From assembly GCA_963708295.1 (NCBI GenBank), contig CAVPSJ010000004.1, positions 864,001 to 928,000 on the forward strand: 64,000 bases of DNA, given 5' to 3'. The stretch comes from an uncultured delta proteobacterium (GTDB taxonomy: Bacteria; Desulfobacterota; BSN033; UBA1163). The position numbers were made by a program, and so were the translations under genes. The notes under the pieces are model-generated. The model made no database searches, had not been told where the DNA came from, and saw nothing but the letters and a program-made list of their open reading frames with translations. Shown here piece by piece: positions 7,728 through 23,742 of the stretch. Positions within the stretch are counted from its first letter, which is position 1. Every line of letters starts with the position of its first letter.

Positions 7728-7777
7728 TCTGAAAGGAAAACGGATTGTTTTCTTACGACAACTCAAGGAGGGTTGAA

Positions 7778-8692
7778 GTGATTCCAAAGAAAAAGATTAT
7801 TGGCTTATCCTGTGGAAGAGTGAACGGCAACAGTGAAATTCTTTTAAAGGAAGCTGTGATGGGAGCGGAGGAGATCGGAGTCCAATCAGAAATCATCCGC
7901 GCCATGGAGCTGAGAGTCAAACACTGCACGGGTTGTGAAGCCTGCTCCATGGCCATGGCCCGGGGAAAGGAATCAAGATGCGCGATCAAAGACGATGATG
8001 TCGAGTGGATTCTGGAAAAGGTCCTGGTGGAGGATTGCGGTCTCATCGTCAGTACCCCGGTCTATCATTTAAGGTCCAACGGATGTTTTGAGATTATTAA
8101 TGAGCGAATGCTTCCAACGATGTTCAGGAATCCGGGGATTCTGAAAAAGACAAGAGTAGGAGCGATCATTTCTGTCGGCGGGGGGGAGCCCGAATGGACC
8201 CCCTTAGGGCTCACATCGGCCAATATCTTTGTCCAACATACCCGAAAACTGGTCGATCAAATCCAGGTGAATTTCGTGGGACGCCCGGGCGCTGTTTTGG
8301 CGAGACCGGAGGTCCTCCAGCGGGCCAGGGAATTGGGACGAAGAGTTGCCAGGGCAATGAAGGTGCCGATTGAAGAAGTGAAATACTTGGGCGAAGACAA
8401 AGACGTTTCTTGCCCGGTCTGCCACTGCAACGTCGTGCAGGTGTTTGAGAAATTGCCGGATGTCTACTGCCCGGTATGCTGGGTCCATGGTGTCCTATCT
8501 GCCGAGGGAGGCAAAATGAAGGTGAAGTGGAACGAAGAGGATGCAAAGCATCCCCGGTTTTCCGAAAAAGGGGTTTTCACGCATTTGGAATTGATCAAAA
8601 ACCTTCAGAAAAAATTCTTTACAGAAGATCAGGACAAAGTCAAAGCACTGATGCCAAAATATACAGCGTACGGCAACATTGTAAAACCCTAA
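7778..8692 (+). CDS. Flavodoxin/FMN-reductase-fold protein with C-terminal CxxC-CxxC module, flavone reductase (FLR)-like, paralog 1
   Basis: GLSCGRVNGNSEIL, CTGCEAC, STPVY, SVGGG, CPVCH...CPVCW. GTG start 6 nt after AAGGAGG. Confidence 0.85.
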   Translation: MIPKKKIIGLSCGRVNGNSEILLKEAVMGAEEIGVQSEIIRAMELRVKHCTGCEACSMAMARGKESRCAIKDDDVEWILEKVLVEDCGLIVSTPVYHLRSNGCFEIINERMLPTMFRNPGILKKTRVGAIISVGGGEPEWTPLGLTSANIFVQHTRKLVDQIQVNFVGRPGAVLARPEVLQRARELGRRVARAMKVPIEEVKYLGEDKDVSCPVCHCNVVQVFEKLPDVYCPVCWVHGVLSAEGGKMKVKWNEEDAKHPRFSEKGVFTHLELIKNLQKKFFTEDQDKVKALMPKYTAYGNIVKP

Positions 8693-8785
8693 CCCCACTC
8701 CCACCCCACCCTTCCCCTCCCCCTGAAGGGGAGGGAAATCGCTATCTTCCTCCCCCTTCAAGGGGGAGGTTAGGAGGGGGATGGG
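8693..8785. repeat. REP-like paired GC-rich hairpins
   Basis: CCCTCCCCCTGAAGGGGAGGG and CCTCCCCCTTCAAGGGGGAGG, enclosed by outer C-rich/G-rich arms. Confidence 0.7.
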
Positions 8786-8843
8786 ATTTGTCGAAGTAGT
8801 ATAATTATGTCTTCTCAAAGATGGACTTATTTGTAGCTGTTAA

Positions 8844-10151
8844 ATGATATCGAAAGGTCCTCCCCAGGTCAGAATAGCCCTTCGCAATTGTGGTGAGATC
8901 GACCCCGGAAATATCGATCACTATATCGGCCGCGGCGGGTACAGCGGACTGGTCAGGGCTCTGAAGATGGTTCCTGAAGAGGTGATCGAAGAGGTGGGTA
9001 GGTCCGGGCTCCGGGAGCGAGGCGGGGACGGATTTCCCGCGGGAAAGAAGTGGCGCCTCAGTTTCAATGCACCAGGCAGTGAGAAGATTGTGATCTGCAA
9101 TGCCGCAGAAGGCGACCCGAATTCTCTCACGGCCCGGGCCCTGCTGGAAGGAGACCCCCATTCCGTCTTAGAGGGAATGGGCATTGGTGCCTATGCCATT
9201 GGAGCCGGCCTGGGGTGGATCTATATTAATGCTGAATACGGATTGGCGATTAACAGACTCAGGACTGCTTTGAAGCAAGCGGAGGATCATAGGTTTCTAG
9301 GGGATCATCTTCTGGATTCCAACATCCCTTTCCGCATCGAGGTTAAAGAAGGGACGGGCAAACTCGCCTGCGGCGACGAGACTTTCCTGATCAACGCCAT
9401 AGAAGGTAAGCAAACCATGCCTTTCGTTTGTTCTTCTCACCCTCCCGTATCCGGGCTGGGGGGTAAGCCAACCCTCATCCATCAGGCAGAGACCTGGGCC
9501 CATGTCTCTGCTGTCATGGAGAAGGGTGCAGAATGGTACGCTGGCTTCGGCACTGAGCAAAGCAGGGGGACGAAAGTTTGGAGTTTATCGGGAAAGGTGA
9601 TGCATTCCGGGTTGATCGAGGTCCCCATGGGCATACCTCTCCGTGAAATTGTTTATGACATCGGAGGAGGCCTCCCGGATGGCAAGTCTCTAAAAGCAAT
9701 CCGGGTCGGCGGTTCCACAGGCGGTTATCTACCGCCAAGTTCCCTGGACCTGCCCATTGACGAGGAGCATCTGTCCGCTGCCGGGACCCTCATGGGGTCC
9801 GGAAACATTCTGGTGATCGATAGCGATGCCTGCATCGTTGATCAAGCGAAGTGCTCTCTCTCCTTCATCCGGAGTGAATCGTGCGGCAAGTGCGTTTTTT
9901 GCCGTGAAGGTACGATGCAAATGGCAGAAATTCTGGCGGACATTACCGAAGGCAGGGGAAAAGCTCATGATATCGACCTGCTGTTAGAGTTGGGGGAAGG
10001 TCTTAAGTTGGGGGCTCAATGCGATCTGGGCAGGACGGCAGCTTATCCGGCCCTCACCGCGATCCGGTATTTTCGCGAGGAACTTGAAGCGCATATCAAG
10101 GATAGAAAGTGTCAGGCGCGCGTCTGCAAAACCCTTGAGCCGTCGACGTAG
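8844..10151 (+). CDS. NuoF/HydB-like NADH-binding flavoprotein subunit, truncated and divergent
   Basis: QVRIALRNCGEIDP, SGLRERGGDGFPAGKKW, CNAAEGDP, GTKVWSLSG, ESCGKCVFCREG, QCDLG, HIKDRKCQARVC. Confidence 0.88.
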   Translation: MISKGPPQVRIALRNCGEIDPGNIDHYIGRGGYSGLVRALKMVPEEVIEEVGRSGLRERGGDGFPAGKKWRLSFNAPGSEKIVICNAAEGDPNSLTARALLEGDPHSVLEGMGIGAYAIGAGLGWIYINAEYGLAINRLRTALKQAEDHRFLGDHLLDSNIPFRIEVKEGTGKLACGDETFLINAIEGKQTMPFVCSSHPPVSGLGGKPTLIHQAETWAHVSAVMEKGAEWYAGFGTEQSRGTKVWSLSGKVMHSGLIEVPMGIPLREIVYDIGGGLPDGKSLKAIRVGGSTGGYLPPSSLDLPIDEEHLSAAGTLMGSGNILVIDSDACIVDQAKCSLSFIRSESCGKCVFCREGTMQMAEILADITEGRGKAHDIDLLLELGEGLKLGAQCDLGRTAAYPALTAIRYFREELEAHIKDRKCQARVCKTLEPST

Positions 10152-10236: not shown

Positions 10237-12032
10237 TTGCAGGATGTGAAGGACGGTCGAGATGAGCGGATCGAGGTCCTCTTTCGTAAAGCGGCACCCA
10301 TCGACGTCCCGGAAGCCCGTTATCCGGGCTTCAAACCTGGTACGACCGTTCTCCCTAAAGGGTTTGTCCAAAAGAAAGGAGCACTCCCGCTCCCCTGCGA
10401 CATTATCTTTGAACGAGACGTTGCTGTGGCGCTCCGCGATGGCACGATCATCTATACGGATATCTTTCGTCCCGTCGGTGGTACCCACCTCCCGGCCATC
10501 GTCGCCTGGAGTCCCTACGGAAAGGAGGGAGGCTTGACGCTCCTCGACGACTTTCCTTTTCGGGCCGGTGTGGCCAAGAATGCAGTCTCGGAACTGCAGA
10601 AGTGGGAAGGTCCTGATCCCGCCTACTGGTGTTCCCATGGTTACGCGGTCGTGAATCCCGATGCTCGCGGTGCCTTTAGTTCGAACGGAGACATCCACTT
10701 CTGGGGGAGCCAAGAGGGCCGGGACGGCACCGATATGATTGAGTGGGTGGCATCTCAGGAGTGGAGCAACGGCAAGGTTGGGCTGTCGGGCAACTCGTGG
10801 TTGGCCATTGCCCAGTGGTTTATCGCAGCAGAGAGACCTCCCCATCTGGCCGCCATTGCTCCCTGGGAGGGGTGGTCCGATGCCTACCGAGAAGATGTGG
10901 GTCGTGGCGGTGTGCAGGATTTCGGATTTTGTGAACGCATTGTCTCGAAGATGCGCGGGAAGAATCGTGTCGAGGACGTCCCCACCATGATCCAGAAATA
11001 TCCCCTCATGAACGCCTGCTGGGAGGACAAAATCGCCAAGTTAGAGAATATTGGCATTCCTGCCTACGTTGTCGCAAGCTGGACCGGCATGATGCACGTA
11101 CACGGGACCCTCGACAGTTTCCAGCGGATTCCCTCCAAAGAAAAATGGCTTCGCGTCCATAACACTCAGGAATGGCCCGACTATTACGACCCTAAGTACA
11201 CGGAAGATCTACGTCGATTCTTCGACCGGTACCTGAAGGGTATCAAGAACGGCTGGGAGAATACCTCGCGGGTGCGACTGTCGGTTCTCGACCCCGGCGG
11301 CGCTGATGAAATCAATCGTCCTGAGAACGAATTTCCCCTGGCTCGGACACAGTACAAGAGTCTCTACCTCGACGGACGCTCGGGGACGCTCTCTTCCAAT
11401 CCGGTGACAGATGAGACTTTGGTGCGCTATGCGGCTGACGATGGCAAAGGAAAAGCTGCCTTCACTATCAGGTTCGATGAGGATACGGAACTGACCGGAT
11501 ACATGAAGTTGCGCCTCTGGGTGGAGGCAATCGGGTCAAACGACATGGACCTATTCGTCAAGGTCCAGAAGCTCAGCAAAGGAGGCAAGGTCCTTTCCAG
11601 CCCGGTCATTGTCCCGCCAATCCCGTTGCCCGGACGATGGTCAATCTCCTGTGGTCGTTCGGAGTCCGGAAGCTGTCCTTTCTCTTCTTTACCGGTCCTT
11701 CCGGGAGATTGCGGGTCTCCCACCGTGCACTCGATGAGGCACGGTCGACCCCATCAGAACCTTATCTGACACACCGCGCTGAAGAGTTTTTGAGTCCCGG
11801 GCAGATTGTTCCGGTGGAGATTGGAATATGGCCTGTGGGCATGCGCTGGCATGCCGGCGAGCAATTGCGGCTTATGATCGCAGGATACAACCTGACGCCG
11901 ATGCCAATGGCCGGGATCAAGCCGCCTAAGCTGCGCAACAAGGGTGAGCACATCATCCATGCGGGTGGTAAGTACGATTCACACCTTCTGGTGCCGGTGA
12001 TTTCGAAGGGCCAGTCTTTGGGAGGAGGTTGA
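10237..12032 (+). CDS. CocE/NonD family serine hydrolase (peptidase S15 + PepX_C), cytoplasmic, frameshift near 11630
   Basis: LRDGTIIYTDIFRP, WSPYGK, GYAVVNPDARG, nucleophile GNSWLA. The C-terminal domain continues in ORF 11637-12032 (GRLRVSHR...YDSHLLVPVI). Confidence 0.9.
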
Positions 12033-12412
12033 TTGGCAATAGGCCTGGGCGTAGACATCATCACCCTCAGCAGAATGAAAGACGTATTGGACACCGGCGG
12101 CAAGGTGTTTCTGGACAAGGTATTTCACGCCGTGGGAGCAGGAGCGGGCTGAAGCCCACTCCCGACCGCGTGGCCTATCTGGCAATGATCTTTGCTGCCA
12201 AAGAAGCCATCTTTAAAACGTTTGGAATTGGCTGGGAGACAGGCGTCCAGTTCAAGGAAATAGAGGTCCGGGACGGGGAACATGGAGAGCCGATCCCCGT
12301 TCTCACGGGAAGATTTGCTGAGCTTGCATCCGAACGTGATGTCTCCCGTGTGCTTTTGAGCCTCTCGTATGATGGCGACTATGCCGTGGCAGTAGCAACC
12401 TTATCAAAATGA
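12033..12412 (+). CDS. acpS: Holo-ACP synthase (4'-phosphopantetheinyl transferase), frameshifted near 12125-12165
   Basis: TTG start after GGAGGAGG gives AIGLGVDIITLSRMK. The other frame gives FAAKEAIFK...IEV...GEP...LSLSYDGDYAVA. Confidence 0.88.
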
Positions 12413-12491
12413 GAGATTTCTGAAAAGGCCAGAAATCTCTGGTTACAGCGATTATGAAACGATTACAACGAAGCAACCCCTCCCTTCCTCG

Positions 12492-12573
12492 TAACTCCCC
12501 CCGCCCCCTCTCTTATTCTAAGAGGGGATCATTTGATTCCCCCCTTAGATTAAGGGGGGATTTAGGGGGGTTA
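12492..12573. repeat. REP-like paired hairpins
   Basis: TAACTCCCCC...CCCCTCTCTT-AAGAGGGG...CCCCCCTTA-TAAGGGGGG...GGGGGGTTA. Confidence 0.65.
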
Positions 12574-12644
12574 TATTGGGAGGTGAGGTGGGATTAATCA
12601 TCTTAGAGAAACTGTGAGTATCCCTTCAACCAGGAGAACTTGAA

Positions 12645-13646
12645 ATGCCTACGGATGTCATGGAGCAATTGCAGGTTAAGGCCAAGGCGAATCCTCAAAG
12701 GGTTGTATTTTCTGAAGCTGATGAGGAGAAGATCCTTCGTGCGGCGCGTCAGATAAAAGATATGGGGATCGCGTATCCTATACTCGTCGGGGAACCCGAG
12801 GCCGTATCCCTCTTGGCCGGAAACATCGGGGTGTCGCTTGATGGGATCACGGTGATTGACCACACTGATGCAGGAAAGGTCGAGCAGTTCGCCAGCGGGT
12901 ATGCGAAGATCAATCCGGACTTTCCGGCCTCCGCTATCAAGCGCATGCTAAGGGACCCGCTTTATTTCGCGGCCATGATGGTGAAATTAGGCGAGGCGGA
13001 CTGCATGGTGGCAGGACTGAGCCATACGACGGGAGAGGTGATCATGGCCAGTGAGATGATCATCGGATTGCAGGAAGGCATCTCCACGGTCTCAAGTACG
13101 GGCATTCTTTCCATCCCGGGATATGAGGGGCTGGAAGGGAACCTGCTGGGGATTGCTGACTGCGCTGTCTGTCCGGCGCCCGATTCTAAGGAGCTGGCCG
13201 ACATCGCCATCTCGACGGCCGACACCTTGCAGAGACTGCTGGGCTGGGAGCCGCGCGTGGCCCTGTTGTCCTTTTCAACAAAGGGCAGCGCAAGCCACGA
13301 GCGCGTTGACACAGTACTGCAGGCCCTGGACATGGTGCGCGAGCGGAGGCCGGAGCTGCTCATTGACGGCGAGCTTCAACTGGATTCCGCGATCGTCCCG
13401 GAGGTGGCAGCCAGGAAGGTGAAGGGAGGAAGCCCGGTGGCCGGCAAGGCCAACATCCTGATCTTCCCGGATCTCAACGCAGGCAACATCGGGGTGAAAC
13501 TTGTCCAGCGGTTTGCCAAGGCGGTGGCTTATGGGCCGCTTCTGCAGGGCTTCGCCAAGCCGGTAAGCGACCTGTCCCGTGGCGCGCCTGTGGAGGAGAT
13601 TGTAGGGGCGACCACGATGGTGGCAGTACGAGCACAAAATAAATAG
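12645..13646 (+). CDS. pta: Phosphate acetyl/acyltransferase
   Basis: ADCAVCPAP, ALLSFSTKGS, DGELQLDSAI, GKANILIFPDLNAGNIGVKLVQR, GPLLQGFAKPVSDLSRG. Confidence 0.93.
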   Translation: MPTDVMEQLQVKAKANPQRVVFSEADEEKILRAARQIKDMGIAYPILVGEPEAVSLLAGNIGVSLDGITVIDHTDAGKVEQFASGYAKINPDFPASAIKRMLRDPLYFAAMMVKLGEADCMVAGLSHTTGEVIMASEMIIGLQEGISTVSSTGILSIPGYEGLEGNLLGIADCAVCPAPDSKELADIAISTADTLQRLLGWEPRVALLSFSTKGSASHERVDTVLQALDMVRERRPELLIDGELQLDSAIVPEVAARKVKGGSPVAGKANILIFPDLNAGNIGVKLVQRFAKAVAYGPLLQGFAKPVSDLSRGAPVEEIVGATTMVAVRAQNK

Positions 13647-13650
13647 GGCT

Positions 13651-13799
13651 CGAATATCGAAGCACGAAATTCGAAACAAATCCGAATTTCGAATGTTTCA
13701 AATTCTAAACATCGTAGTACCTGAAAAAACTGATTTCGGTCAGTTAGAATTCGAATTTTGGTCATTGTTTCGGATTTCGATATTCGAGTTTCGGATTTT
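13651..13799. repeat. Inverted heptamer-repeat element (empty form)
   Basis: CGAAGCACGAAATTCGAAACAAATCCGAA ... TTGTTTCGGATTTCGATATTCGAGTTTCGGATTT. The arms are reverse complements. Same family as 4054-4376. Confidence 0.7.
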
Positions 13800-13902
13800 A
13801 ATTCAATGGTCGCTCGCTTACCCGATGTTACATCTTTGCGCCTGGCGCAACCCTGCCTGATGGTTAAGGACCAGGTTGGTCATGGAGGGAAAGGTAACTC
13901 TT

Positions 13903-15012
13903 GTGGATAAGAAATACAGACTTCTTGCGATCAACCCGGGCTCCACCTCAACCAAGATCGCGCTCTTTGAAAACGATACGGAAATTTTCTCTGCCAACGT
14001 CGCTCATGACGCAGCCAGGCTCAAAGAGTTTCGCGAGATCAGCGACCAGTTTCCGTATCGTAAGGAGACCATACTGAGTGAGCTGGCTAAAAAGAACATC
14101 TCCTTGAAAGGAATAGACGCCTTTGTCGGACGGGGAGGCGGGCTCGTCGGCCTGGAAGGAGGAACCTATACGATCAATGAGACCTTGCTGCATCATGCCA
14201 GAATTGGCTTTACCGTGAAACACCCGGCCACGCTCGGCAGTCAGCTGGCCCATGACTTTGCGTTGACCTATGGCGGAAAAGCCTTCGTCGTCAATCCGCC
14301 CGACGTCGATGAATTTCAACTTGTGGCACGAGTCAGCGGGCTCCACGATGTCCCCCGCGAGAGCAGGGGCCACCCTCTCAACCAGAAAGAAGTCGGAATC
14401 CGCTACGCCGCAGAGATCGGCAAGCGTTACGAGGATCTCAACCTGATCATATCCCACATCGGCGGCGGCGTAACGGTGACGGCTCACCAGAAGGGTCGTA
14501 TGGTCGATTCGACCGATGTGATCAATGGCGATGGTCCCATGGCTGCCACGCGCGCAGGCGCGATCCCGGCTGTGGCCATCATCAGGATGTGTTATTCGGG
14601 AAAATATACGGAAAAAGAGATGTATGACCGCATCACCAAGAATGGCGGTCTGGTCGATCATCTCGGCACCGCCGACGTCCGCGAGATACAGGAACGCATC
14701 AAAAACGGCGATGCCTATGCAAAACTCATCTACGACGCCATGATCTATCAGATTGGAAAGAGCATCGGCGCTTATGCAACGGTCTTAAGAGGTGAAGTGG
14801 ATGCCATTCTACTGACCGGCGGCATCGCTCACGATGCCTATCTGGTCGAGAGGATCACCGATATGGTCAAGTACATCGCTCCGGTCAAGGTCTACGCAGG
14901 TGAGTTCGAGATGGAAGCCCTGGCTGCAGGCGCTCTCAGGGTGCTGACCGGTCAGGAACAGCCCAAGACCTATACCGGAGTACCGGTATGGAATGGTTTT
15001 GACGAGAGATGA
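13903..15012 (+). CDS. buk: Butyrate kinase family acyl-phosphate kinase
   Basis: LAINPGSTSTK, VGRGGG, HPLNQK, HIGGGVTV, LTGGIA, GEFEMEALAAGALRVL. GTG at 13903 is in frame with the ORF from 13876. Confidence 0.93.
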   Translation: MDKKYRLLAINPGSTSTKIALFENDTEIFSANVAHDAARLKEFREISDQFPYRKETILSELAKKNISLKGIDAFVGRGGGLVGLEGGTYTINETLLHHARIGFTVKHPATLGSQLAHDFALTYGGKAFVVNPPDVDEFQLVARVSGLHDVPRESRGHPLNQKEVGIRYAAEIGKRYEDLNLIISHIGGGVTVTAHQKGRMVDSTDVINGDGPMAATRAGAIPAVAIIRMCYSGKYTEKEMYDRITKNGGLVDHLGTADVREIQERIKNGDAYAKLIYDAMIYQIGKSIGAYATVLRGEVDAILLTGGIAHDAYLVERITDMVKYIAPVKVYAGEFEMEALAAGALRVLTGQEQPKTYTGVPVWNGFDER

Positions 15013-15013
15013 A

Positions 15014-15138
15014 CAGGTTGCTGAAAAATGGCCATCTACTGCGTTTCCCTCATCCTTCGTCGTTGCAGCGTACAGGCAAGTACGCCTCGCTCCTCAGGAT
15101 TTCGGGAGCCTTGCATCTGGCCCTTTTTGAGCAACCTG
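15014..15138. mobile_element. Putative MITE (125 bp) with terminal inverted repeats
   Basis: CAGGTTGCTGAAAAA ... TTTTTGAGCAACCTG (14/15 match). No coding capacity. Confidence 0.6.
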
Positions 15139-15164
15139 GAGGAGATTCCCTTTTCAGGAGCCTG

Positions 15165-15238
15165 GACGAAATACGCGAATGATGATGAATTTCACGAATA
15201 GAACCGGTTCGTGTTATTCGTTGTCATTCGTGCCATTT
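15165..15238. repeat. Short inverted (A)CGAAT/ATTCGT repeat array
   Basis: ACGAAATACGCGAAT...CACGAAT versus TTCGTGTTATTCGTTGTCATTCGTG. Confidence 0.5.
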
Positions 15239-15278
15239 GAGCCTATTTTCTAAATCATAGAAAAGGAGTAAAAAAACA

Positions 15279-15527
15279 ATGGGATTAAGAGAAGAGGTAT
15301 TGGAGAAAATCATTCAACGAGCTGCGGTACTCTTCAAGAAAGACCCCGGCGAATTAAGTCCAGACACGAAATGGGTGGAGGACCTCAAGGCCAAATCGGT
15401 CAATTACGTTCAGGTCATCGCCATATTAGAGGATGCATTTGACGTCCAGATTAATTTCATGGAGTTCAGAAGGAAAAAGACTTTGGGCGAGGCCGCTGAA
15501 TTCGTCGCCCAACTCTGCGGGGGCTGA
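15279..15527 (+). CDS. Acyl carrier protein with atypical Ppant motif
   Basis: 82 aa. WVEDLKAKSVNYVQVIAILEDAFDVQI aligns with ACP F.EDLGADSLD.VEL...LEEEF.I.I. KKTLGEAAEFV. AAGGAG RBS. Confidence 0.85.
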   Translation: MGLREEVLEKIIQRAAVLFKKDPGELSPDTKWVEDLKAKSVNYVQVIAILEDAFDVQINFMEFRRKKTLGEAAEFVAQLCGG

Positions 15528-15593
15528 TCAGAACAAGAATCAGAAATTTAATTGAGATAAGAAAATAATCGATACAAGAGATAAAATGGGAGG

Positions 15594-17369
15594 ATGGCCA
15601 TGGCTGAAACGAAAAGAAAAAAAGTAATGTTCGGCAATGAGGAAATCGATGCAGTCTACAGGGAAACAAGAAGACCAGTTCCGCCCCAGAAGAAAGAATC
15701 GAAGGCCAAACAGGAGGAGAACTGGGACGGACTCGAAGAAAAATCTCTAGAGGGATCCGGGTTTGGAGTCTGTCCTGATCTCAACCGCCGCACCTATCTT
15801 GCTGAAGACGGCATTATCTGCGAGCAGGACGTCCCCGTGACCCTGCGGGACGGCGTGGTGATCTACACCGACATTTACCGTCCCGTGGAACAGACAAATA
15901 TTCCTGCCATCGTCTCATGGAGTTATTTCGGCAAACGTCCGGGCGATGGCTTCGACGAATGGCAGATCATCGGGGTTCCGCCGGGGACTGTTTCCCGGAT
16001 GGCCAAGTTCGAATCTCCCGATCCCGCCTACTGGTGTCGCCATGGCTATGCGATCGCCAACGCGGACCCCCGCGGCATTGGCCATTCAGAGGGTGATGTA
16101 TGCTTTTTCGGCACGCAAGACGGACGTGACTGCTATGACTTCATCGAATGGCTTGCAACCCAGTACTGGTGCAACGGCAAGATCGGGATGGGCGGCAACT
16201 CGGGTGTGGCCATGACCCACTGGCGAGTGGCTGCAGAGCAGCCCCCTCACCTTGCCTGCATCGCCCCTTGGGAAGGCACGGGAGACCTGTATCGCGAGTC
16301 CCTTTATGAAGGAGGTATCCCGGCGCTTGGTTTCTGCGACTTTATTGTGGGTTCCCTGGTGGGCAACGGATATGTGGACGACGCCGCTGCTATGGCCCTG
16401 GAGCACCCTTTTCTGGACGCCTATTGGGAAGACAAAATCCCGAGGTGGGAAAAGATCAGGATTCCAACCTATACCACAGTCTGCTGGAACCATTTTCACC
16501 TGCGCGGTTCTATGGAAGGTTTCAGGAGGATCCGTTCCACGAAGAAGTGGCTCCGGGCACACAGGGAGTTTGAGTGGCCGGATACCTATTCCACCTTCGG
16601 CCTCGAAGATCTGAAAGGGTTCTACGATCGCTATCTGAAAGACATCCGAAACGGCTGGGAGCTTACGCCGAGGGTCCGCCTTGAGATCATGGATGCCTAT
16701 GATTTTAATTATCAGGTCAACCGTCCCGAAAAGGAGTTCCCCCTTGCCCGAACCCAGTACAAGAAGCTCTACCTCGACGCCGCCAAGGGCGCTCTCTCCT
16801 TTGATCCCGTTGCCAAGGAATCAAAGGTCAGCTACGAGGCCGAGACCGGGTCAACGACCTTCGCCATCAAATTGACCGAAGACACGGAGATTACCGGCTA
16901 CATGAAGCTCCGCCTCTGGGTTGAGGCCGAGGGCAATGATGATATGGACCTCTTTATTGCAATCCGGAAGCTCGATGAAAAAGGCAACTGGCTGCCGACA
17001 AACGTGTTGGGAGAACCCCATCCGGGAGCATGGGGAAAGATGAGGGTATCGCGGCGCGAGCTCGATCAGAAGCTGTCCACGGATTTTCAGCCGATCCAGG
17101 CCCATCGCAAGGATGAAAAGCTGAAACCCGGTGAAATCGTTCCCGTGGATATTGAGATATGGCCCCACAGCAGGATTTGGCACAAAGGCCAGCAGTTGCA
17201 AGTCCTTGTATCAGGGCATTACGTTCGCGAAGGCTGGTTTGAGCCTTTCTCATGGGAGCTTAACAATAAAGGTAAGCATGTGATCCACTCAGGGGGGAAA
17301 TATGATTCGTATCTCCAGATACCTGTCATCCCTCCGAGATATCAGGCCGGCGATTATGTTTACAGGTAA
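15594..17369 (+). CDS. CocE/NonD family serine hydrolase/acyltransferase, cytoplasmic
   Basis: LRDGVVIYTDIYRP, GYAIANADPRG, GNSGVA, PepX_C-like C-terminus (GYMKLRLWVEA, YDSYLQIPVIP). Intact 591 aa. Confidence 0.92.
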   Translation: MAMAETKRKKVMFGNEEIDAVYRETRRPVPPQKKESKAKQEENWDGLEEKSLEGSGFGVCPDLNRRTYLAEDGIICEQDVPVTLRDGVVIYTDIYRPVEQTNIPAIVSWSYFGKRPGDGFDEWQIIGVPPGTVSRMAKFESPDPAYWCRHGYAIANADPRGIGHSEGDVCFFGTQDGRDCYDFIEWLATQYWCNGKIGMGGNSGVAMTHWRVAAEQPPHLACIAPWEGTGDLYRESLYEGGIPALGFCDFIVGSLVGNGYVDDAAAMALEHPFLDAYWEDKIPRWEKIRIPTYTTVCWNHFHLRGSMEGFRRIRSTKKWLRAHREFEWPDTYSTFGLEDLKGFYDRYLKDIRNGWELTPRVRLEIMDAYDFNYQVNRPEKEFPLARTQYKKLYLDAAKGALSFDPVAKESKVSYEAETGSTTFAIKLTEDTEITGYMKLRLWVEAEGNDDMDLFIAIRKLDEKGNWLPTNVLGEPHPGAWGKMRVSRRELDQKLSTDFQPIQAHRKDEKLKPGEIVPVDIEIWPHSRIWHKGQQLQVLVSGHYVREGWFEPFSWELNNKGKHVIHSGGKYDSYLQIPVIPPRYQAGDYVYR

Positions 17370-17481: not shown

Positions 17482-18455
17482 ATGAAAGTTCTCGGACTGA
17501 CCTGCGGCAGGAAGATGAGCAACACGGAGATACTCGTCAAAGAAGCGCTTATGGGCGCGGAAGAGGCGGGTGCAAAGGTGGAGATCGTGCGTCTGATGGA
17601 CCTGAATATCAGGCCGTGCACGGGGTGCAACTCCTGCGTGATCGATCTTTTCGAAAAAGCCGGCTCAGGGGAATGCGTCATCAAGAATGACGATTTCAAG
17701 TTCATCGACGACAAAATCCATGACTGCGACGGGCTGATCCTGGGTTCCCCGGTTTATGAGAAGGCCCCGCAGGGTTTGCTGAAGGTCCTGAACGACAGGA
17801 TGGGGCCGTCCCATGATCTGGCATTCAGAATCATTGCGAAGAAGATCAGGGAGGAGAAAGGCATTACCAAAGGCAAAGGACCGGACGAGAGGTCGTTCAA
17901 ACCGAGAGTGGCATCGCTCTTTGCCGTCGGAGGCAGCGACTGGACGACTCTGGCGCTTCCCATGCTGCAGATATTCGCTCTTCCGATGAACATGCTGGTT
18001 GTGGATCAGCATGTATTCAACTGGACGGCTTTACCCGCTATCGTGGCATTGAGGCCTGAAATGCTCGAGAGGGCGAGAAGGTCAGGGCGTCATGTGGCCG
18101 AGACCTTGAAGAAACCGATTGAAGAGGCAAAGTATATTGGCGATCCCGGTAGGTGTCCCGTATGCCATTCAAGTGTACTGGAGGTCGGAAAGACAACGGA
18201 ACCGGTGATTTGCGCCGTCTGCGGTGTAAAGGGCAACTTTGAAAACGAAAGGTGACGATTATGTAGCTGGAGGTCACCGACGAGGCAAGGGCCCTTTCGA
18301 ACGTTCTCCTTTCGGGTAAATTCCACCATGGCGATGATATGAAGGCTGTTTCGCTGAAGCCTGACCCACGGATGGCCGAGATCCCTGCGTTGATCGAGAA
18401 ATACAAATCGTATTTAACGTACTCCAGGCCGGATCGAACGGCGACGGAAAAGTAA
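17482..18455 (+). CDS. Flavodoxin-fold flavone reductase (FLR)-like protein, paralog 2, frameshifted near 18235-18260
   Basis: EALMGAEEAGA, CTGCNSC, SPVYEK, DRMGP, AVGGSDW, CPVCHS...CAVCG. The shifted frame continues LSGKFHHGDDMK...KYKSY to TAA at 18453-18455. Confidence 0.87.
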
Positions 18456-21050: not shown

Positions 21051-21149
21051 ACGGCGACAATCCTATTTCTGTCGCCGAAGCAATCAAATAGTTGGATAAA
21101 CTGTATTTGGATCATTACGACATTGGTTGGACAGAGGAGGATATCTCCA

Positions 21150-22109
21150 ATGAAAAGTTTGGTCGTCTATTACTCTCAAACGGGAAACACCAAAAAGGTC
21201 GCTCGTGCAATTCACAAAGGGATGAGCCCACTGCTGGAGCAATGCGATATCGCCACGGTCAAGGAGATCAAGCCTCAGGATGTGAGCAAGTATGATTTGA
21301 TCGGCCTGGGCAGTCCGGTATGGGATGGCGCAGAGGCCCCCAATGTCAGACGCTTCACAGAAAACATGCTGAATCAGCAGGGAAGGCACATCTTCTCCTT
21401 TAATACCCACGGCGTCATGCCGGAACACTATTTCCCCACCGTGGTCAGGAGGTTGAAGGGGAAGGGTTTCACGGTCATTGGGATGCGGGACTGGTACGGG
21501 GACGGCATTTTTCAGCTTGCCCCCAGTCCCTATTTTACCCACGGACATCCGGACGAGATTGACCTGAAAGAGGCGGAGGATTTTGGGAGAGAAATGGTGG
21601 AGGTCAGTCGTAGGATATCGGCCGGGGAGGTCGTTCTCATTCCTCCTGTGCCCGCGCGTGTGTTTACGGAACAATTGCATGTCCTGACGGAGTTCTACCG
21701 GTCCGGCCATAACCCGCACGGCCTCATTAAATATGATTCCGAAAAGTGTGCCTATCCGAAATGCCGCCTCTGTATGGATCACTGCCTGATGGATTACATC
21801 GACCTGTCGGCTTCGCCAAGGGTCTTCGGGTCTAACAAAACAGAGTGTGACATGTGGCTTGGTTGCACCTTTTGCGAAATGATCTGCCCCACCGGCGCCA
21901 TATCCTGCGACTGGGAGGGATTCCAACGGGATTTCGGGGGAAAGATCGGTGTGGTTCTTGGCGGCAATCCACTTGCGAATGCTGCAGAAGAAGCCATTGC
22001 TTCAGGTCGATTGAGGATGCTGGTGCCCAAGGAAGAGGTGAGGTGGGATAGGCCCTATTTCAAGGTTCACAATAAACACCCTCGCTTCAAGATACCTAAG
22101 GAAAAGTGA
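21150..22109 (+). CDS. Flavodoxin - 4Fe-4S ferredoxin fusion (EFR1-like)
   Basis: YYSQTGNTKKVA, GLGSPVW, GHPDEIDLKEAEDFG, CAYPKCRLCMDHC, CDMWLGCTFCEMICPTGAI. Confidence 0.88.
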   Translation: MKSLVVYYSQTGNTKKVARAIHKGMSPLLEQCDIATVKEIKPQDVSKYDLIGLGSPVWDGAEAPNVRRFTENMLNQQGRHIFSFNTHGVMPEHYFPTVVRRLKGKGFTVIGMRDWYGDGIFQLAPSPYFTHGHPDEIDLKEAEDFGREMVEVSRRISAGEVVLIPPVPARVFTEQLHVLTEFYRSGHNPHGLIKYDSEKCAYPKCRLCMDHCLMDYIDLSASPRVFGSNKTECDMWLGCTFCEMICPTGAISCDWEGFQRDFGGKIGVVLGGNPLANAAEEAIASGRLRMLVPKEEVRWDRPYFKVHNKHPRFKIPKEK

Positions 22110-22143
22110 CATTGCGGGGTGAACTTTCAGAGAGGAGGTGTCT

Positions 22144-23742
22144 ATGGATTACCAAAAAAGATTCGTTGTTATTGGACTCATTGCTCTTGTGGCCCTGCTG
22201 TCGCTGACAAGGCCCGGCCTAGCTGCTCAGAGCACCCCGGTCATGGCCTGTCCGGGCCTGATGGACATGACGAAGTTCTTCCAACCGGGGGCCACGATCA
22301 CCTCGGCCAAGATGGTTCCCGCAGGTGACGGGCTGCCCGAACACTGCAAAGTAGAGGGGTGGCGGTGGCCTGACGACGGGTTCGTCGTCAAGCTGCCGTC
22401 TCAATGGAATGGCCGCCTCTTCCAGGTCGGGAACGGCGGTGCAGGCGGTTCGATCGATGAAGCGGCGATGGTAATGGGTCTTCAAAAGGGTTTTGCAGCG
22501 GCTGGAGGAAGCGGTGGCCACAGAACCCCTGCCACCCTGTTCCAGTTCGGCTATTTTGCTAATGACCCCGTAGCCTACCGGAAGATGGTCGATTACTGCT
22601 CGGAATCGGTTCACTCCAGCAACGAACTGGTGCGCAAGATGATCAAGACATACTATGGTGTCGCTCCTATATATGCCTACTACGTGGGTTATTCTACCGG
22701 CGGAAGGCAAGGTCTTATGGAGGCCCAGCGGTATCCCGATGACTTCGACGGAATCCTGGGAGGCGGGGACCCCGCACCCTTTACAGTGAGAACCATGGAG
22801 GACACCTGGGTCTCTACCCAACTGCTCGGCCCGGCCCATATCCCGCACGCCAAGCTCCCTCTTCTCGCCGAGGCAGTTATGGCCAAGTGCGACGAGATCG
22901 ATGGATTAAAAGATGGTGTGATCGAAGATCCTCGCAAGTGCGCCTTCAATGCATTGACCGATCTACCCGCCTGTCCAGGGAATAGCGATGGGGTGAACTG
23001 CTTTACTGAGGTCCAGCGGCAGGTTGCCTACAACATATACCGGGGTCCGCAGACCTCGTCGGGCAAGCTCCTTGCAATGGGTGTCAGTTTCGGCAGTGAG
23101 GCCATCATGGCAGACGGCAAAAGCGGCTGGACCATGTTTGTTCCCGAGAAGCCAGGGGGCGGCACATATTCCTTGGGACTGGGTTCCAGCTTTGTGAAGT
23201 GGGTCGGCCTGCCTCCCACGAGCGGTGGGCCGAACTGGGACTGGAAGACATTCAACGTCGATACGGACTGGGATGTGGTGAGGGGTAACTGGGGAGAGAT
23301 GTGTGATACCAACGATCCGGACCTACGGGCCTTTAAAGCGAAAGGAAAGAAGTTCATCGACTATCATGGCTGGGCTGATGCGCTTTGCTGGCCCTTCCGG
23401 GCGATCGACTACTATGACGAGGTGATGAAGAAGATAGGAAGCCTTGAGGAGACAAGGAAGTTCTACAGGCTCTACATGATCCCGGGCATGACCCATTTTC
23501 CAGGAGGACGCGGGGTGCTCGACAGAAATACGTTGCGAGAGCCCATGTTCCAGGCCTTGCAGGACTGGGTTGAAAAGGGCATCGAGCCTATCAAACCTTT
23601 TGTGGGGTCGCGACCGGTGGTACCCGGCAAGTGGGATGCCATCACGCGGCCTGTCTGCGCCTATCCCGAAGTGGCTCGGTACCGCGGTTCGGGCAGCACG
23701 GACGCGGCAGAGAACTTCACCTGCGTGAATCCGTCTCCGTGA
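22144..23742 (+). CDS. Tannase/feruloyl esterase family alpha/beta hydrolase, secreted
   Basis: Signal peptide, LPSQWNGR..QVGNGG, GYSTGGRQGLMEAQRYPDDFDG, CDEIDGLKDG, YHGWAD, PGMTH, DWVEKG, TRPVCAYP. Confidence 0.93.
   Translation: MDYQKRFVVIGLIALVALLSLTRPGLAAQSTPVMACPGLMDMTKFFQPGATITSAKMVPAGDGLPEHCKVEGWRWPDDGFVVKLPSQWNGRLFQVGNGGAGGSIDEAAMVMGLQKGFAAAGGSGGHRTPATLFQFGYFANDPVAYRKMVDYCSESVHSSNELVRKMIKTYYGVAPIYAYYVGYSTGGRQGLMEAQRYPDDFDGILGGGDPAPFTVRTMEDTWVSTQLLGPAHIPHAKLPLLAEAVMAKCDEIDGLKDGVIEDPRKCAFNALTDLPACPGNSDGVNCFTEVQRQVAYNIYRGPQTSSGKLLAMGVSFGSEAIMADGKSGWTMFVPEKPGGGTYSLGLGSSFVKWVGLPPTSGGPNWDWKTFNVDTDWDVVRGNWGEMCDTNDPDLRAFKAKGKKFIDYHGWADALCWPFRAIDYYDEVMKKIGSLEETRKFYRLYMIPGMTHFPGGRGVLDRNTLREPMFQALQDWVEKGIEPIKPFVGSRPVVPGKWDAITRPVCAYPEVARYRGSGSTDAAENFTCVNPSP

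What the first reader, a model, noticed from the sequence alone, without database searches (positions are those of the whole stretch)
10237..17369. CocE-AcpS-Pta-Buk-ACP-CocE module: candidate ACP-dependent, ATP-conserving catabolic acyl-transfer system
Seen: six co-oriented genes encode two cytoplasmic CocE/NonD serine enzymes, a dedicated PPTase, a phosphotransacylase, a butyrate kinase and a standalone ACP. I found no KS, AT, A-domain or fab genes in the window. Known: CocE/S15 enzymes form acyl-serine intermediates and some (alpha-amino acid ester hydrolases) act as acyltransferases, while Pta+Buk convert thioesters to ATP via acyl-phosphate. Inference: an acyl group from an ester, or from C-C cleavage of an acyl-phloroglucinol/dihydrochalcone, is caught on the ACP phosphopantetheine instead of water. 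It then goes acyl-ACP -> acyl-phosphate -> acid + ATP. This would be an energy-conserving alternative to phloretin hydrolase and a catabolic use of ACP that I do not know to be described.
Basis: partly seen in the sequence, partly recalled or inferred. Interest (0 to 1): 0.93.

Follow-up and report, generated by a model that had tools for sequence, protein, structure and literature searches.

The report
Carrier-protein ATP module beside polyphenol genes
A conserved set of five genes found in many oxygen-free wetland and sediment bacteria looks built to catch a cleaved-off acyl group on a small carrier protein and turn it into ATP, probably during plant polyphenol breakdown, but no experiment has yet shown this.

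Summary
The six genes are at the stated coordinates with the stated families. In this assembly the first CocE gene and AcpS are broken by three single-base indels that relatives lack.

The real unit has five genes: AcpS, a Pta-type phosphotransacylase, butyrate kinase, a distinctive 82-aa ACP, and one clade of CocE/NonD enzyme (CocE2).
- I found 98 distinct ACP loci, in Thermodesulfobacteriota, Chloroflexota, Acidobacteriota and one Bacillus.
- CocE2 is the next gene in 56 of 61 evaluable loci.
- Among 31 loci with at least 5 kb on each side: Buk 31, Pta 30, CocE2 30, AcpS 26. Gene order varies.
- In the window's class, full-length Pta occurs only in the 4 of 68 genomes that carry this ACP.
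- Module Ptas keep the catalytic Asp/Ser/Arg. All 14 lack both CoA-contacting arginines that 28 ordinary Ptas of the phylum retain as Arg or Lys.
- Sister CocE1-type genes sit with the same reductases but without ACP, Pta or Buk.

Neighbours are flavone-reductase-family, vinylphenol-reductase-like and enoate reductases, sometimes phloroglucinol-pathway genes. Best reading: acyl to ACP, to acyl phosphate, to ATP. The substrate is unknown and there is no biochemistry. I found no description in print.

The parts
10237..12032 (+). CocE1, a CocE/NonD (S15) serine-hydrolase-family gene. It is frameshifted in this assembly near 11615/11616, giving ORFs 10237-11769 and 11637-12032. It is not part of the conserved five-gene unit.
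   Evidence: Pfam S15 plus the two halves of PepX_C fall in two ORFs. Relatives carry one extra base at 11615/6. The gene is an intact 598 aa in L081. Orthologs in G022, G017 and G249 lie with FLR-like, flavodoxin and FAD reductase genes but without ACP, Pta or Buk.
12033..12412 (+). Dedicated AcpS-type phosphopantetheinyl transferase. Two single-base insertions near 12122-12126 and 12159-12160 break the frame in this assembly.
   Evidence: PF01648 matches the C-terminal part only. An alignment with three intact 125-aa orthologs shows the two extra bases. The contigs listed at these two places's indel table lack the extra bases. AcpS is present in 26 of 31 well-flanked loci.
12413..12644 (.). 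Intergenic repeat element between AcpS and Pta.
   Evidence: 16 further partial copies occur in the genome. Metagenome depth is very high and loose ends appear here. A terminator-like hairpin lies at 12540-12570.
12645..13646 (+). Pta-type phosphotransacylase (Pta*), the proposed acyl-ACP:phosphate acyltransferase.
   Evidence: PF01515 full length, E 9e-105. NF007233 scores 331.6 against a cut-off of 310. It is the only PTA_PTB gene in the genome. Catalytic D309, S311 and R312 are kept. The M. thermophila Pta (MtPta) R87 motif is deleted and R133 is M or L in 14 of 14 module Ptas, against Arg or Lys in 28 of 28 background Ptas.
13876..15012 (+). Butyrate kinase, proposed to convert acyl phosphate plus ADP to acid plus ATP. 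Orthologs start at the 'DKKY' motif, so the true start is probably near 13903.
   Evidence: TIGR02707 scores 435.9 against a cut-off of 289.1. It is the only acetokinase-family gene in the genome. Present in 31 of 31 well-flanked loci. A true acetate kinase takes its place in the Bacillus locus L063.
15279..15527 (+). Dedicated 82-aa acyl carrier protein with an invariant DLKAKSVN motif.
   Evidence: PF00550 scores 28.5 against a cut-off of 20.8. Ser40 aligns with the DSL serine of solved ACPs. The family is highly conserved, 74-91% identity among 24 relatives, with invariant S40 and C80. It is only 27-33% identical to the housekeeping ACPs of relatives.
15594..17369 (+). CocE2, the ACP-linked clade of CocE/NonD enzymes. 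Proposed acyl-enzyme former that passes the acyl group to holo-ACP.
   Evidence: S15 plus a complete PepX_C. TIGR00976 scores 203.9 against a cut-off of 66.3. It aligns over residues 73-579 with PDB 3IB3, and Ser203 aligns with the cocaine esterase nucleophile. It is the next gene after ACP in 56 of 61 loci. The 18 ACP-linked sequences form one clade, support 100/99. 37 positions are clade-specific, including G204, H300 and R324.
17482..18255 (+). Flavone-reductase (FLR) family ene-reductase, a frequent neighbour of the module.
   Evidence: Its only PDB hit is 7D38, E 6e-53. 7D38 is FLR with chrysin. The FLR family is present in 20 of 31 well-flanked loci.
7745..10151 (+). Upstream redox partners: an FLR-like FMN_red protein (7745-8692) and a NuoF-like NADH-binding Fe-S flavoprotein (8844-10151).
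   Evidence: Pfam. NuoF family, E 2e-111. A Nuo51 homolog is present in 11 of 31 loci.
21123..28754 (+). Downstream partners. Flavodoxin-4Fe4S (21123-22109), tannase (22138-23742), FLR-family (23783-24745), a GltD/NuoG-like Fe-S flavoprotein split into 25007-25936 and 25887-27116, and an FAD ene-reductase (27300-28754).
   Evidence: Pfam. The FAD protein's best NCBIfam match is vinyl phenol reductase VprA, 336 bits against a cut-off of 600. 23783-24745 hits FLR 7D38 at E 4e-52. The GltD-like protein is a single ORF of about 700 aa in orthologous loci.

Best explanation
AcpS, Pta*, Buk, ACP and CocE2 form one functional unit. I read it as a CoA-independent device for substrate-level phosphorylation. 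The proposed steps are:
1. The dedicated AcpS puts a phosphopantetheine arm on Ser40 of the unusual ACP.
2. CocE2 uses Ser203 to attack an energy-rich acyl-X bond in a polyphenol-derived intermediate. The neighbouring FLR-family, VprA-like and OYE-type ene-reductases would produce that intermediate. The bond is most likely the C-C bond of a beta-dicarbonyl or acyl-phloroglucinol (dihydrochalcone-type) compound, or else an aryl ester or lactone.
3. The resulting acyl-enzyme is resolved by the ACP thiol instead of water.
4. Pta*, which has kept its catalytic residues but lost the arginines that hold the nucleotide part of CoA, phosphorolyses acyl-ACP to acyl phosphate.
5. Butyrate kinase makes ATP and regenerates holo-ACP.

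The sister CocE1-type enzymes would carry out the same cleavage hydrolytically, without energy conservation.

What is shown: the gene content, the co-conservation, the phyletic coupling and the residue patterns. What is inferred: every chemical step, the direction of flow and the substrate.
For: 1. **Co-location.** There are 98 distinct ACP loci.
   - CocE2 is the next gene in 56 of 61 evaluable loci.
   - Among 31 loci with at least 5 kb on both sides: Buk 31, Pta 30, CocE2 30, AcpS 26.
   - Gene order varies. Examples are AcpS-Pta-Buk-ACP-CocE2, AcpS-ACP-CocE2-Pta-Buk and Pta-Buk-AcpS-ACP-CocE2.
   - By record titles the 26 genome loci split as 14 Thermodesulfobacteriota/deltaproteobacterial, 5 Chloroflexota, 6 Acidobacteriota and 1 Bacillus.
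2. **Reverse test.** Searching 401 genomes of the phylum with CocE2 gave 5 hits at 72-86% identity. All 4 evaluable ones have ACP directly upstream plus Pta and Buk.
3. **Phyletic profile in the window's class (68 genomes).**
   - This ACP occurs in 4.
   - Full-length Pta occurs in the same 4 and in no other, always inside the module.
   - The module's butyrate kinase copy likewise lies in those 4. Buk-type matches otherwise occur only in two genomes (G042, G066), both of which also carry Ptb-type genes; in G066 the two lie side by side.
   - The window's Pta and Buk are the only members of their families in its genome.
4. **Pta residues.**
   - D309, S311 and R312 are kept in 14 of 14 module Ptas.
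   - The LRK(H)KG arginine (M. thermophila Pta, MtPta, R87) sits in a 2-residue deletion in 14 of 14. The equivalent of MtPta R133 is Met in 11 and Leu in 3.
   - All 28 background Ptas of the same phylum have the first Arg. At the second position 26 have Arg and 2 have Lys.
   - A passage of PMC6461089 says these two arginines form CoA site 2, that their mutation mainly changes Km, and that acetyl-CoA binds there in the P. gingivalis crystal.
5. **Sister clade.** CocE1-type genes in G022, G017 and G249 have the same partners (FLR-like, flavodoxin-FeS, GltD-like, FAD reductase, transporter) but no ACP, Pta or Buk nearby. G022 and G017 also lack them genome-wide. The shared step is therefore a cleavage, and the extra genes deal with its acyl product.
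6. **Redundancy argument.** In L049 and L073 an ADP-forming acyl-CoA synthetase sits between Pta and Buk. This is redundant unless Pta and Buk serve a different thiol carrier.
7. **Context.**
   - Ene-reductases are common neighbours: FLR family, VprA-like FAD reductase and enoate reductase.
   - In some loci there are also DPGC-like cyclase, 3-hydroxyacyl dehydrogenase, BKACE, an SDR and a pyrogallol-transhydroxylase-like enzyme.
   - These match the phloroglucinol pathway families described in PMC10470551 (passages).
8. **Phloretin hydrolase.** The DAPG_hydrolase family was not found in any of 5 other module genomes, although the same search does ring in G000.
9. **Chemistry (recalled).** Thiolysis of beta-dicarbonyls and aryl esters is roughly isoenergetic. 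FabD and AT domains pass acyl-serine to an ACP thiol. PlsX interconverts acyl-ACP and acyl phosphate.
Against: - No biochemical or expression data exist. The complex prediction never ran.
- Pta and kinase genes are ordinary members of phloroglucinol gene clusters, acting on acetyl-CoA (PMC10470551 figure legend passage). In L073 they sit in one operon with CoA transferase genes.
- Five of 61 loci lack CocE2 after ACP. Examples are L129 (AcpS-ACP-cyclase-SDR-3HCDH) and L057/L132 (ACP-Pta-Buk without CocE2). ACP therefore need not always work with CocE2.
- One locus (L052) lacks Pta nearby.
- The lost arginines belong to 'site 2', which the cited paper considers not essential for catalysis. Their loss is suggestive, not proof of a change of substrate.
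- The catalytic Asp and His of CocE2 could not be placed with certainty. The position where CocE1-type proteins carry Asp or Glu is an invariant His in CocE2, so the chemistry may differ from a classical triad.
- The Pta subtype suggests acetyl while the kinase is Buk-type, so the acyl group is unresolved.
- An ordinary alkyl ester would not carry enough energy (recalled thermodynamics).
Confidence: 0.45

Rival explanations
1. Two units that merely travel together. Pta and Buk are the ordinary CoA-dependent terminal enzymes of polyphenol and phloroglucinol fermentation (acyl-CoA to acyl phosphate to ATP). AcpS-ACP-CocE2 does a separate job, for example hydrolysing or transferring an ACP-bound intermediate.
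For: - Phosphate acetyltransferase and acetate kinase are drawn as members of phloroglucinol clusters, and butyrate kinase is induced by phloroglucinol in C. scatologenes (PMC10470551 passages).
- In L073, Pta and Buk lie in one operon with DPGC-like, SDR, 3HCDH and CoA transferase genes.
- The Pta catalytic residues are intact.
- Some ACP loci lack CocE2 next door.
Against: - Pta and Buk co-occur with ACP far more tightly (30-31 of 31 loci) than with any phloroglucinol gene (4-7 of 31).
- In the window's class, Pta exists only where this ACP exists.
- All 14 module Ptas have lost both CoA-contacting arginines.
- ACD next to Pta and Buk in two loci would be redundant.
- This reading leaves ACP-CocE2 without a function.
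Confidence: 0.22
2. The reverse, activating direction, like FakAB-PlsX. Buk phosphorylates a short acid at the cost of ATP. Pta* moves the acyl group onto ACP. CocE2 acts as an acyltransferase that esterifies or amidates a phenolic acceptor, for example to prime it for reduction or to modify it.
For: - Fatty acid kinase plus PlsX makes acyl-ACP from acid and ATP without CoA (recalled precedent).
- Enzymes of the CocE family such as alpha-amino acid ester hydrolases catalyse acyl transfer (recalled).
- All the reactions are reversible in principle.
- An AMP-binding ligase lies next to CocE2 in 3 genome loci and in 4 of 31 well-flanked loci.
Against: - The sister CocE1 loci have the same reductases and transporters without any acyl-activating genes, so the shared step is more likely a cleavage than an acylation.
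- The hosts are energy-limited anaerobes from wetlands and sediments (record titles; runs laid). The loci look catabolic, with uptake ABC or TRAP transporters and sigma-54 or LysR regulators.
- ACD, an ATP-yielding enzyme, is inserted in two loci.
Confidence: 0.15
3. A chance neighbourhood of unrelated genes or decaying pseudogenes in this genome.
For: Two of the six genes carry frameshifts in the window. Several other genes of the window are also split.
Against: The indels are absent from all relatives examined. The five-gene set recurs in 98 distinct loci in four phyla.
Confidence: 0.02

Closest known systems
Pta-Ack and Ptb-Buk substrate-level phosphorylation
   Same: A phosphotransacylase of the PTA_PTB family with intact catalytic Asp/Ser/Arg, followed by an acetokinase-family kinase.
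   Different: It is always clustered with a dedicated ACP, an AcpS and a CocE-family enzyme. The Pta lacks both CoA-contacting arginines in 14 of 14 cases, against 0 of 28 ordinary Ptas of the phylum. The proposed thiol is ACP-bound phosphopantetheine, not CoA.
PlsX with the FakA/FakB fatty acid kinase system (recalled)
   Same: Interconversion of acyl-ACP and acyl phosphate, and a kinase acting on the acid/acyl-phosphate pair without CoA.
   Different: The protein families differ: PTA_PTB and butyrate kinase here, against PlsX and Fak. The known system serves lipid synthesis with the housekeeping ACP. Here the setting is catabolic, the acyl groups are presumably short or aryl-alkyl, and the ACP is dedicated. 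PlsX family membership was not tested.
Glycine reductase complex (recalled)
   Same: A protein-bound thioester is phosphorolysed to an acyl phosphate that yields ATP through a kinase.
   Different: There the thioester sits on a cysteine of GrdC after selenoether reduction. There is no ACP, no phosphopantetheine and no serine hydrolase.
Phloretin hydrolase (Phy, DAPG-hydrolase family) of the gut flavonoid pathway
   Same: It would stand at the same place in the pathway, between ene-reductases (FLR, enoate reductase) and the phloroglucinol pathway. Phy was not found in 5 of 5 other module genomes.
   Different: CocE2 has an unrelated fold: only S15 and PepX_C domains match. Phy releases the free acid. 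Here the acyl group would be conserved as a thioester. The substrate is unproven.
CocE/NonD family hydrolases: cocaine esterase, alpha-amino acid ester hydrolases, and S. aureus 3IB3
   Same: The domains match, TIGR00976 is passed, and the nucleophile serine aligns.
   Different: CocE2 forms a separate clade. It has 37 clade-specific invariant positions, including Gly in place of Trp right after the nucleophile and His where sister proteins have Asp or Glu. It also has a conserved N-terminal extension of about 70 aa and is obligatorily linked to an ACP gene.
Citrate lyase and malonate decarboxylase ACPs (recalled)
   Same: A dedicated carrier protein used in catabolism.
   Different: Those carry a 2'-(5''-phosphoribosyl)-3'-dephospho-CoA group and belong to other families. 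This one is a PP-binding ACP with an AcpS-type transferase.

Membership tests
CocE/NonD (peptidase S15) family, for CocE2 at 15594-17369 | S15 alpha/beta-hydrolase domain plus the PepX_C jelly-roll domain | tested here: met
   PF02129 E 5.5e-35 and PF08530 E 5.6e-35, covering 1-217 of 217 profile positions. TIGR00976 scores 203.9 bits against a cut-off of 66.3.
CocE/NonD (peptidase S15) family, for CocE2 | Nucleophile serine in the G-x-S-x-x-G elbow | tested here: met
   Ser203 in GGNSGVA aligns with the serine of GVSYLG in cocaine esterase chains and in 3IB3. It is invariant in 15 of 15 orthologs. That this is Ser117 of cocaine esterase is recalled.
CocE/NonD (peptidase S15) family, for CocE2 | Complete Ser-Asp-His triad | tested here: inconclusive
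   His323 aligns with a conserved His of 3IB3. At the position where CocE1-type proteins have Glu or Asp, CocE2 has an invariant His300. No coordinates were available to check the geometry.
Phosphate acetyltransferase (Pta) | Full-length PTA_PTB domain and curated Pta models | tested here: inconclusive
   PF01515 E 9e-105. Subfamily NF007233 scores 331.6, above its cut-off of 310. The equivalog TIGR00651 scores 306.8, just below its cut-off of 311.2.
Phosphate acetyltransferase (Pta) | Catalytic Asp, Ser and Arg of site 1 | tested here: met
   D309, S311 and R312 are present in 14 of 14 module Ptas. Their roles are taken from a passage of PMC6461089.
Phosphate acetyltransferase (Pta) | CoA-contacting arginines (M. 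thermophila Pta, MtPta, R87 and R133) | tested here: not met
   Both are absent in 14 of 14 module Ptas: a deletion at the first, Met or Leu at the second. They are present as Arg or Lys in 28 of 28 background Ptas.
Butyrate kinase | Curated equivalog model | tested here: met
   TIGR02707 scores 435.9 against a cut-off of 289.1. NF002834 scores 461.5 against 222.
Acyl carrier protein (PP-binding) | PP-binding fold with the phosphopantetheine-accepting serine | tested here: met
   PF00550 scores 28.5 against a cut-off of 20.8. Ser40 aligns with the DSL serine of solved ACPs and is invariant in 25 of 25 sequences.
Housekeeping fatty-acid-synthesis AcpP | Curated AcpP models, the DSL motif and a strongly acidic protein | tested here: not met
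   The best NCBIfam ACP model scores 45.4 against a cut-off of 66. The motif is KAKSVN. Counting residues in the sequence gives 14 acidic and 12 basic. It is 27-33% identical to the relatives' housekeeping ACPs.
AcpS-type holo-ACP synthase | ACPS domain of about 125 aa | tested here: met
   PF01648 scores 36 bits against a cut-off of 25 on the in-frame part. Intact 125-aa orthologs exist. The window copy itself is broken.
Phloretin hydrolase (DAPG_hydrolase), for CocE2 | PF18089 domain | tested here: not met
   CocE2 matches only the S15 and PepX_C families. Any likeness is of role, not of family.
Flavone reductase (FLR) family, for 17482-18255 and 23783-24745 | Sequence homology to the solved FLR, a WrbA-like fold with a C-terminal tail | tested here: met
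   The only PDB hit is 7D38, at E 6e-53 and 4e-52. 7D38 is FLR with chrysin. Activity was not tested.
PlsX (acyl-ACP:phosphate acyltransferase) | PlsX family domain | not tested
   Pfam reported only PF01515 for the Pta gene at E up to 0.01. No dedicated comparison with PlsX was made.

The most novel reading that the evidence does not exclude
Many wetland, peat and sediment anaerobes would carry a CoA-free 'thiolytic' replacement for phloretin-type hydrolases. A serine-hydrolase-fold enzyme cleaves the C-C bond of a reduced flavonoid or another acyl-phloroglucinol or beta-diketone intermediate. It hands the acyl group to a dedicated ACP. A Pta that has switched from CoA to ACP, together with butyrate kinase, then earns one ATP per cleavage. 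This would be a new mode of substrate-level phosphorylation in anaerobic polyphenol degradation.
Probability: 0.25. Interest if true: 0.9.

Novelty: new variant of a known kind. Interest (0 to 1): 0.8.

Why it matters
**If the reading holds.**
- It adds a new route of substrate-level phosphorylation in which an ACP replaces CoA as the thioester carrier.
- It shows how a hydrolytic step can be upgraded into an ATP-yielding one by recruiting four genes.
- This matters for organisms living near the thermodynamic limit.
- It matters for the fate of plant polyphenols in anoxic peat and wetland soils. How anaerobes gain energy from phenolics there is an open question tied to carbon storage (the 'enzyme latch' discussion in the PMC10470551 abstract).

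**A testable enzymology case.** A Pta family has lost its CoA-contacting arginines while keeping its catalytic residues.

**If the exact chemistry is wrong.** A five-gene module conserved in 98 loci across four phyla, and absent from the literature I could search, still deserves an assay.

Tried and rejected
**Complex prediction.** Complex prediction (CocE2 alignment A2 with ACP alignment A1) was sent ten times and never answered, so there is no result at all.

**Fusions.** I looked for fused ACP forms. Only one longer protein turned up, 201 aa on a 913-base contig, so there is no Rosetta-stone evidence.

**RNA and signals.**
- Rfam scan of the whole window: no match.
- Promoter and terminator scan of 7500-21500: 16 promoter-like sites against 8.9 ± 3.5 expected, terminator-like sites at the chance level, and nothing usable.

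**Sequencing runs.** No public run holds the stretch at half of its words or more; the best share was 0.24. The window's own reads could not be checked. The laid contigs are relatives, not the same strain.

**Ideas considered and dropped.**
- The M24/creatinase-like fragment at 31691-32470 as the dihydrophloroglucinol hydrolase. The paper places DPGC in the cyclase family.
- CocE2 as the DPG or triacetate cleaving enzyme in general. Cyclase and BKACE genes co-occur with CocE2 in L042 and L061. This is weakened, not excluded.
- The chalcone route as general. CHI was not found in any of 5 other module genomes.

**Caveat on the tree.** The rows of the tree were chosen through the ACP, so it does not on its own show that the whole clade is ACP-linked. 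address this partly.

**Literature.** Searches found no paper describing the module. Supplements were not consulted.

Full report
**What is in the window**

- a CocE/NonD (S15) gene;
- an AcpS-type phosphopantetheinyl transferase;
- a PTA_PTB phosphotransacylase;
- an acetokinase-family kinase that NCBIfam names butyrate kinase;
- a PP-binding ACP;
- a second CocE/NonD gene.

NCBIfam refines the calls. The Pta passes the phosphotransacetylase subfamily model (331.6 against 310). It falls just short of the pta equivalog (306.8 against 311.2). The kinase passes the butyrate kinase equivalog (435.9 against 289.1).

Two of the six are not intact here. The first CocE gene is split into 10237-11769 and 11637-12032. 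AcpS has two extra single bases within 40 nt, so only its C-terminal part is in frame. The evidence that these breaks are not real features is:
- Three orthologous loci have an intact 125-aa AcpS.
- A close relative (L081, CocE2 98% identical) has an intact 598-aa CocE1 and 125-aa AcpS.
- Every related metagenome contig listed's indel table at the three places has one base more at 11615/6 and one base less at 12122-6 and 12159-60.
- Other genes in the window are split too, for example the GltD-like protein at 25007-27116, which is one ORF of about 700 aa elsewhere.

I therefore read the breaks as assembly errors or very recent lesions. The window's own reads could not be examined.

**The unit is five genes, not six**

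The ACP is distinctive. Its motif is DLKAKSVN instead of DSL, and it is nearly neutral in charge. It is only 27-33% identical to the housekeeping ACPs of relatives, yet 74-98% identical among 120 listed database clusters.

Using an alignment of it, I fetched 26 loci from genomes and 80 from metagenomes. These make 98 distinct loci after merging near-identical ones.
- Where at least 1.9 kb of sequence follows, a CocE2-type gene is the next gene in 56 of 61 loci.
- Among the 31 loci with at least 5 kb on both sides: Buk 31, Pta 30, CocE2 30, AcpS 26.
- Gene order differs between lineages.
- The record titles name Thermodesulfobacteriota/deltaproteobacteria (14), Chloroflexota (5), Acidobacteriota (6) and one cultured Bacillus sp..
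- In the Bacillus locus a true acetate kinase replaces Buk.

Starting from CocE2 instead gave 5 hits at 72-86% identity in 401 genomes of the phylum. All 4 evaluable ones have ACP immediately upstream plus Pta and Buk. Two of the four seem to be records already found through the ACP.

In a tree, the 18 ACP-linked CocE2 sequences form one clade (100/99). The CocE1 type is its sister, with the caveat that the rows were picked through the ACP.

CocE1 itself is next to the module only in a subgroup (the window, L040, L078, L081, L083). Its orthologs in G022, G017 and G249 lie with the same kinds of reductases and a transporter, but without ACP, Pta or Buk.

**Pta and Buk belong to the module, not to housekeeping**

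They are the only members of their families in the window's genome. Across the 68 genomes of its class:
- This ACP occurs in four genomes.
- Full-length Pta occurs in exactly those four, each time inside the module. Two other genomes (G042, G066) carry shorter Ptb-type genes.
- Buk-type kinases occur in the four plus those two; in G066 the Buk gene lies beside its ptb genes, while in G042 the two matches are on different contigs.
- About 18 other genomes have a full acetate kinase without any Pta.
- None of the other 14 species of the window's genus has the module. The four copies are about 90% identical in protein across four genera. This points to lateral spread.

**A changed Pta**

Aligned with solved Ptas, the module enzyme keeps Asp309, Ser311 and Arg312. 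A passage of PMC6461089 states three things:
- Site-1 residues (Ser309 and Arg310 of M. thermophila Pta, MtPta) govern kcat.
- Arg87 and Arg133 at site 2 mainly affect Km.
- Acetyl-CoA was seen bound at site 2 in the P. gingivalis crystal.

In all 14 module Ptas the LRK(H)KG motif holding the first arginine is replaced by a stretch that is two residues shorter and has no Arg. The second arginine is Met (11) or Leu (3). In 28 ordinary Ptas from 28 other genomes of the same phylum the first Arg is present in 28. The second position is Arg in 26 and Lys in 2.

An ACP-bound phosphopantetheine lacks the 3'-phospho-ADP part of CoA. Loss of nucleotide-contacting arginines is what one would expect of a switch to ACP, but it is not proof.

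**A changed CocE**

CocE2 aligns over residues 73-579 with an uncharacterised S. aureus CocE/NonD structure (3IB3, E 4e-99). Its Ser203 aligns with the nucleophile of cocaine esterase.

Thirty-seven positions are invariant in 15 CocE2 sequences and different in 3-4 CocE1-type sequences. They include:
- Gly204 (Trp in CocE1), directly after the nucleophile;
- His300, where CocE1-type proteins have Glu or Asp;
- Arg324 (Asn in CocE1), next to the conserved His323.

CocE2 also has a conserved N-terminal extension of about 70 residues. That these changes make room for a pantetheine arm is my inference.

**Context**

The most frequent neighbours are ene-reductases and their electron-input modules.
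- Proteins whose only PDB hit is the gut flavone reductase FLR (7D38). These occur in 20 of 31 loci.
- An FAD protein whose best NCBIfam match is vinylphenol reductase VprA, below its cut-off. 16 of 31 loci.
- A GltD/NuoG-like Fe-S flavoprotein, 16 of 31 loci.
- A NuoF-like protein, 11 of 31 loci.
- OYE-type enoate reductases, 7 of 31 loci.
- Branched-chain-type ABC or TRAP transporters.

A minority of loci also hold the phloroglucinol pathway families described for C. scatologenes (passages). These are a cyclase-family DPGC-like gene (6 of 31), 3-hydroxyacyl dehydrogenase (6 of 31), BKACE (4 of 31) and an SDR (7 of 31).

One locus, L073, is a single co-directional string: cyclase, SDR, 3HCDH, CoA transferase A/B, Pta, ADP-forming acyl-CoA synthetase, Buk, AcpS, ACP, CocE2, then a pyrogallol-hydroxytransferase-like molybdoenzyme.

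The window adds a tannase, a CHI-like ORF and a weak DAPG-hydrolase-like ORF. In five other module genomes neither the DAPG hydrolase (phloretin hydrolase) family nor the bacterial CHI N-domain was found.

**Reading**

The module sits where an acyl-releasing cleavage step would sit, between reductive steps on phenolic substrates and, in some lineages, phloroglucinol breakdown. Three observations fit one model:
- the contrast between CocE1 loci (cleavage only) and CocE2 loci (cleavage plus ACP, AcpS, Pta* and Buk);
- the altered Pta;
- the co-existence with an acyl-CoA-dependent ATP-forming enzyme in two loci.

In that model the acyl-enzyme of CocE2 is resolved by the ACP thiol. Pta* makes acyl phosphate and Buk makes ATP.

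Thermodynamically this requires an energy-rich bond. A beta-dicarbonyl C-C bond, an acyl-phloroglucinol or an aryl ester or lactone would do; an ordinary alkyl ester would not (recalled values).

I put the whole chain at 0.45. That the five genes are one functional unit I put at about 0.9. The substrate is open. My rough odds are:
- a dihydrochalcone or acyl-phloroglucinol type compound, about 0.3;
- another beta-diketone of the phloroglucinol or resorcinol routes, about 0.2;
- an aryl ester or lactone, about 0.15.

Rivals are that Pta and Buk are ordinary CoA enzymes that merely travel with ACP-CocE2 (0.22), and the reverse, Fak/PlsX-like activating direction (0.15).

**Novelty**

Five full-text searches found no description of this gene set. 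All the parts are known families. Acyl-ACP/acyl-phosphate interconversion (PlsX), protein-thioester phosphorolysis (glycine reductase) and catabolic carrier proteins (citrate lyase) are all known (recalled). I therefore rate it a new variant of a known kind rather than categorically new.

It passed every test I could apply except the CHI link. It remains unproven biochemically.

Noticed in passing
window 25007-27116; 31691-32470; 33714-34499; 34973-35959: Several further genes look truncated or split. The GltD/NuoG-like protein is two overlapping ORFs here but one ORF of about 700 aa in orthologous loci. The HpaB, M24 and LarA matches cover only parts of their profiles. The assembly seems rich in single-base indels.
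   Followed up: partly
window 12413-12644: The AcpS-Pta intergenic region is a short repeat with 16 further partial copies in the genome. Its metagenome contig depth is very high and it has many loose ends. It contains a G/C-rich hairpin at 12540-12570.
   Followed up: partly
window 36562-38977 (minus strand): A fourth FLR-like gene (36562-37308) lies next to a CHI-like ORF (Chalcone_N, E 4e-7) and a weak DAPG-hydrolase-like ORF (E 2e-5). This may be a small flavanone-opening set next to a Peripla_BP_6 binding protein.
   Followed up: partly
window 18530-20872: A third CocE/NonD gene of 780 aa has an N-terminal extension of about 200 aa with weak likeness to SslE/AcfD lipoprotein models. It branches far from CocE1 and CocE2 in the tree.
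   Followed up: no
L073 (G215:C11) 1-15900: One co-directional string joins DPGC-like cyclase, SDR, 3HCDH, CoA transferase, Pta, ADP-forming acyl-CoA synthetase, Buk, AcpS, ACP, CocE2 and a pyrogallol-hydroxytransferase-like molybdoenzyme with its Fe-S subunit. It looks like a trihydroxybenzene operon that includes the module.
   Followed up: partly
L129 88-3625; L057 and L132: These are ACP loci without CocE2 next door. L129 reads AcpS-ACP-cyclase-SDR-3HCDH. L057 and L132 read 3HCDH-AcpS-ACP-Pta-Buk-FLR-like-ABC transporter. The ACP may have a partner other than CocE2 in some lineages.
   Followed up: no
G-handles of the window's class: About 18 of 68 genomes have a full-length acetate kinase but no PTA_PTB gene at all. 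What supplies their acetyl phosphate is unexplained.
   Followed up: no
window 15279-15527 and alignment A1: The ACP has an invariant Cys80 in a C-terminal LCGG tail and a basic RRKK patch at 64-67. Both are unusual for ACPs and their role is unknown.
   Followed up: no
L063 (Bacillus sp. record) 700-17300: This is the only cultured carrier found. It has ACP-CocE2, a TetR regulator, AcpS, Pta and a true acetate kinase. An integrase gene and an acyl-CoA dehydrogenase/ETF/ETF-QO/AMP-ligase set lie upstream, and a lactonase-like beta-propeller lies downstream.
   Followed up: partly
L042 8737-10332; L043 12248-13824; L124 1414-2940: An AMP-binding ligase lies directly after, or near, CocE2 in a few Dehalococcoidia and metagenome loci. 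It could be an alternative way of loading a thiol carrier.
   Followed up: no
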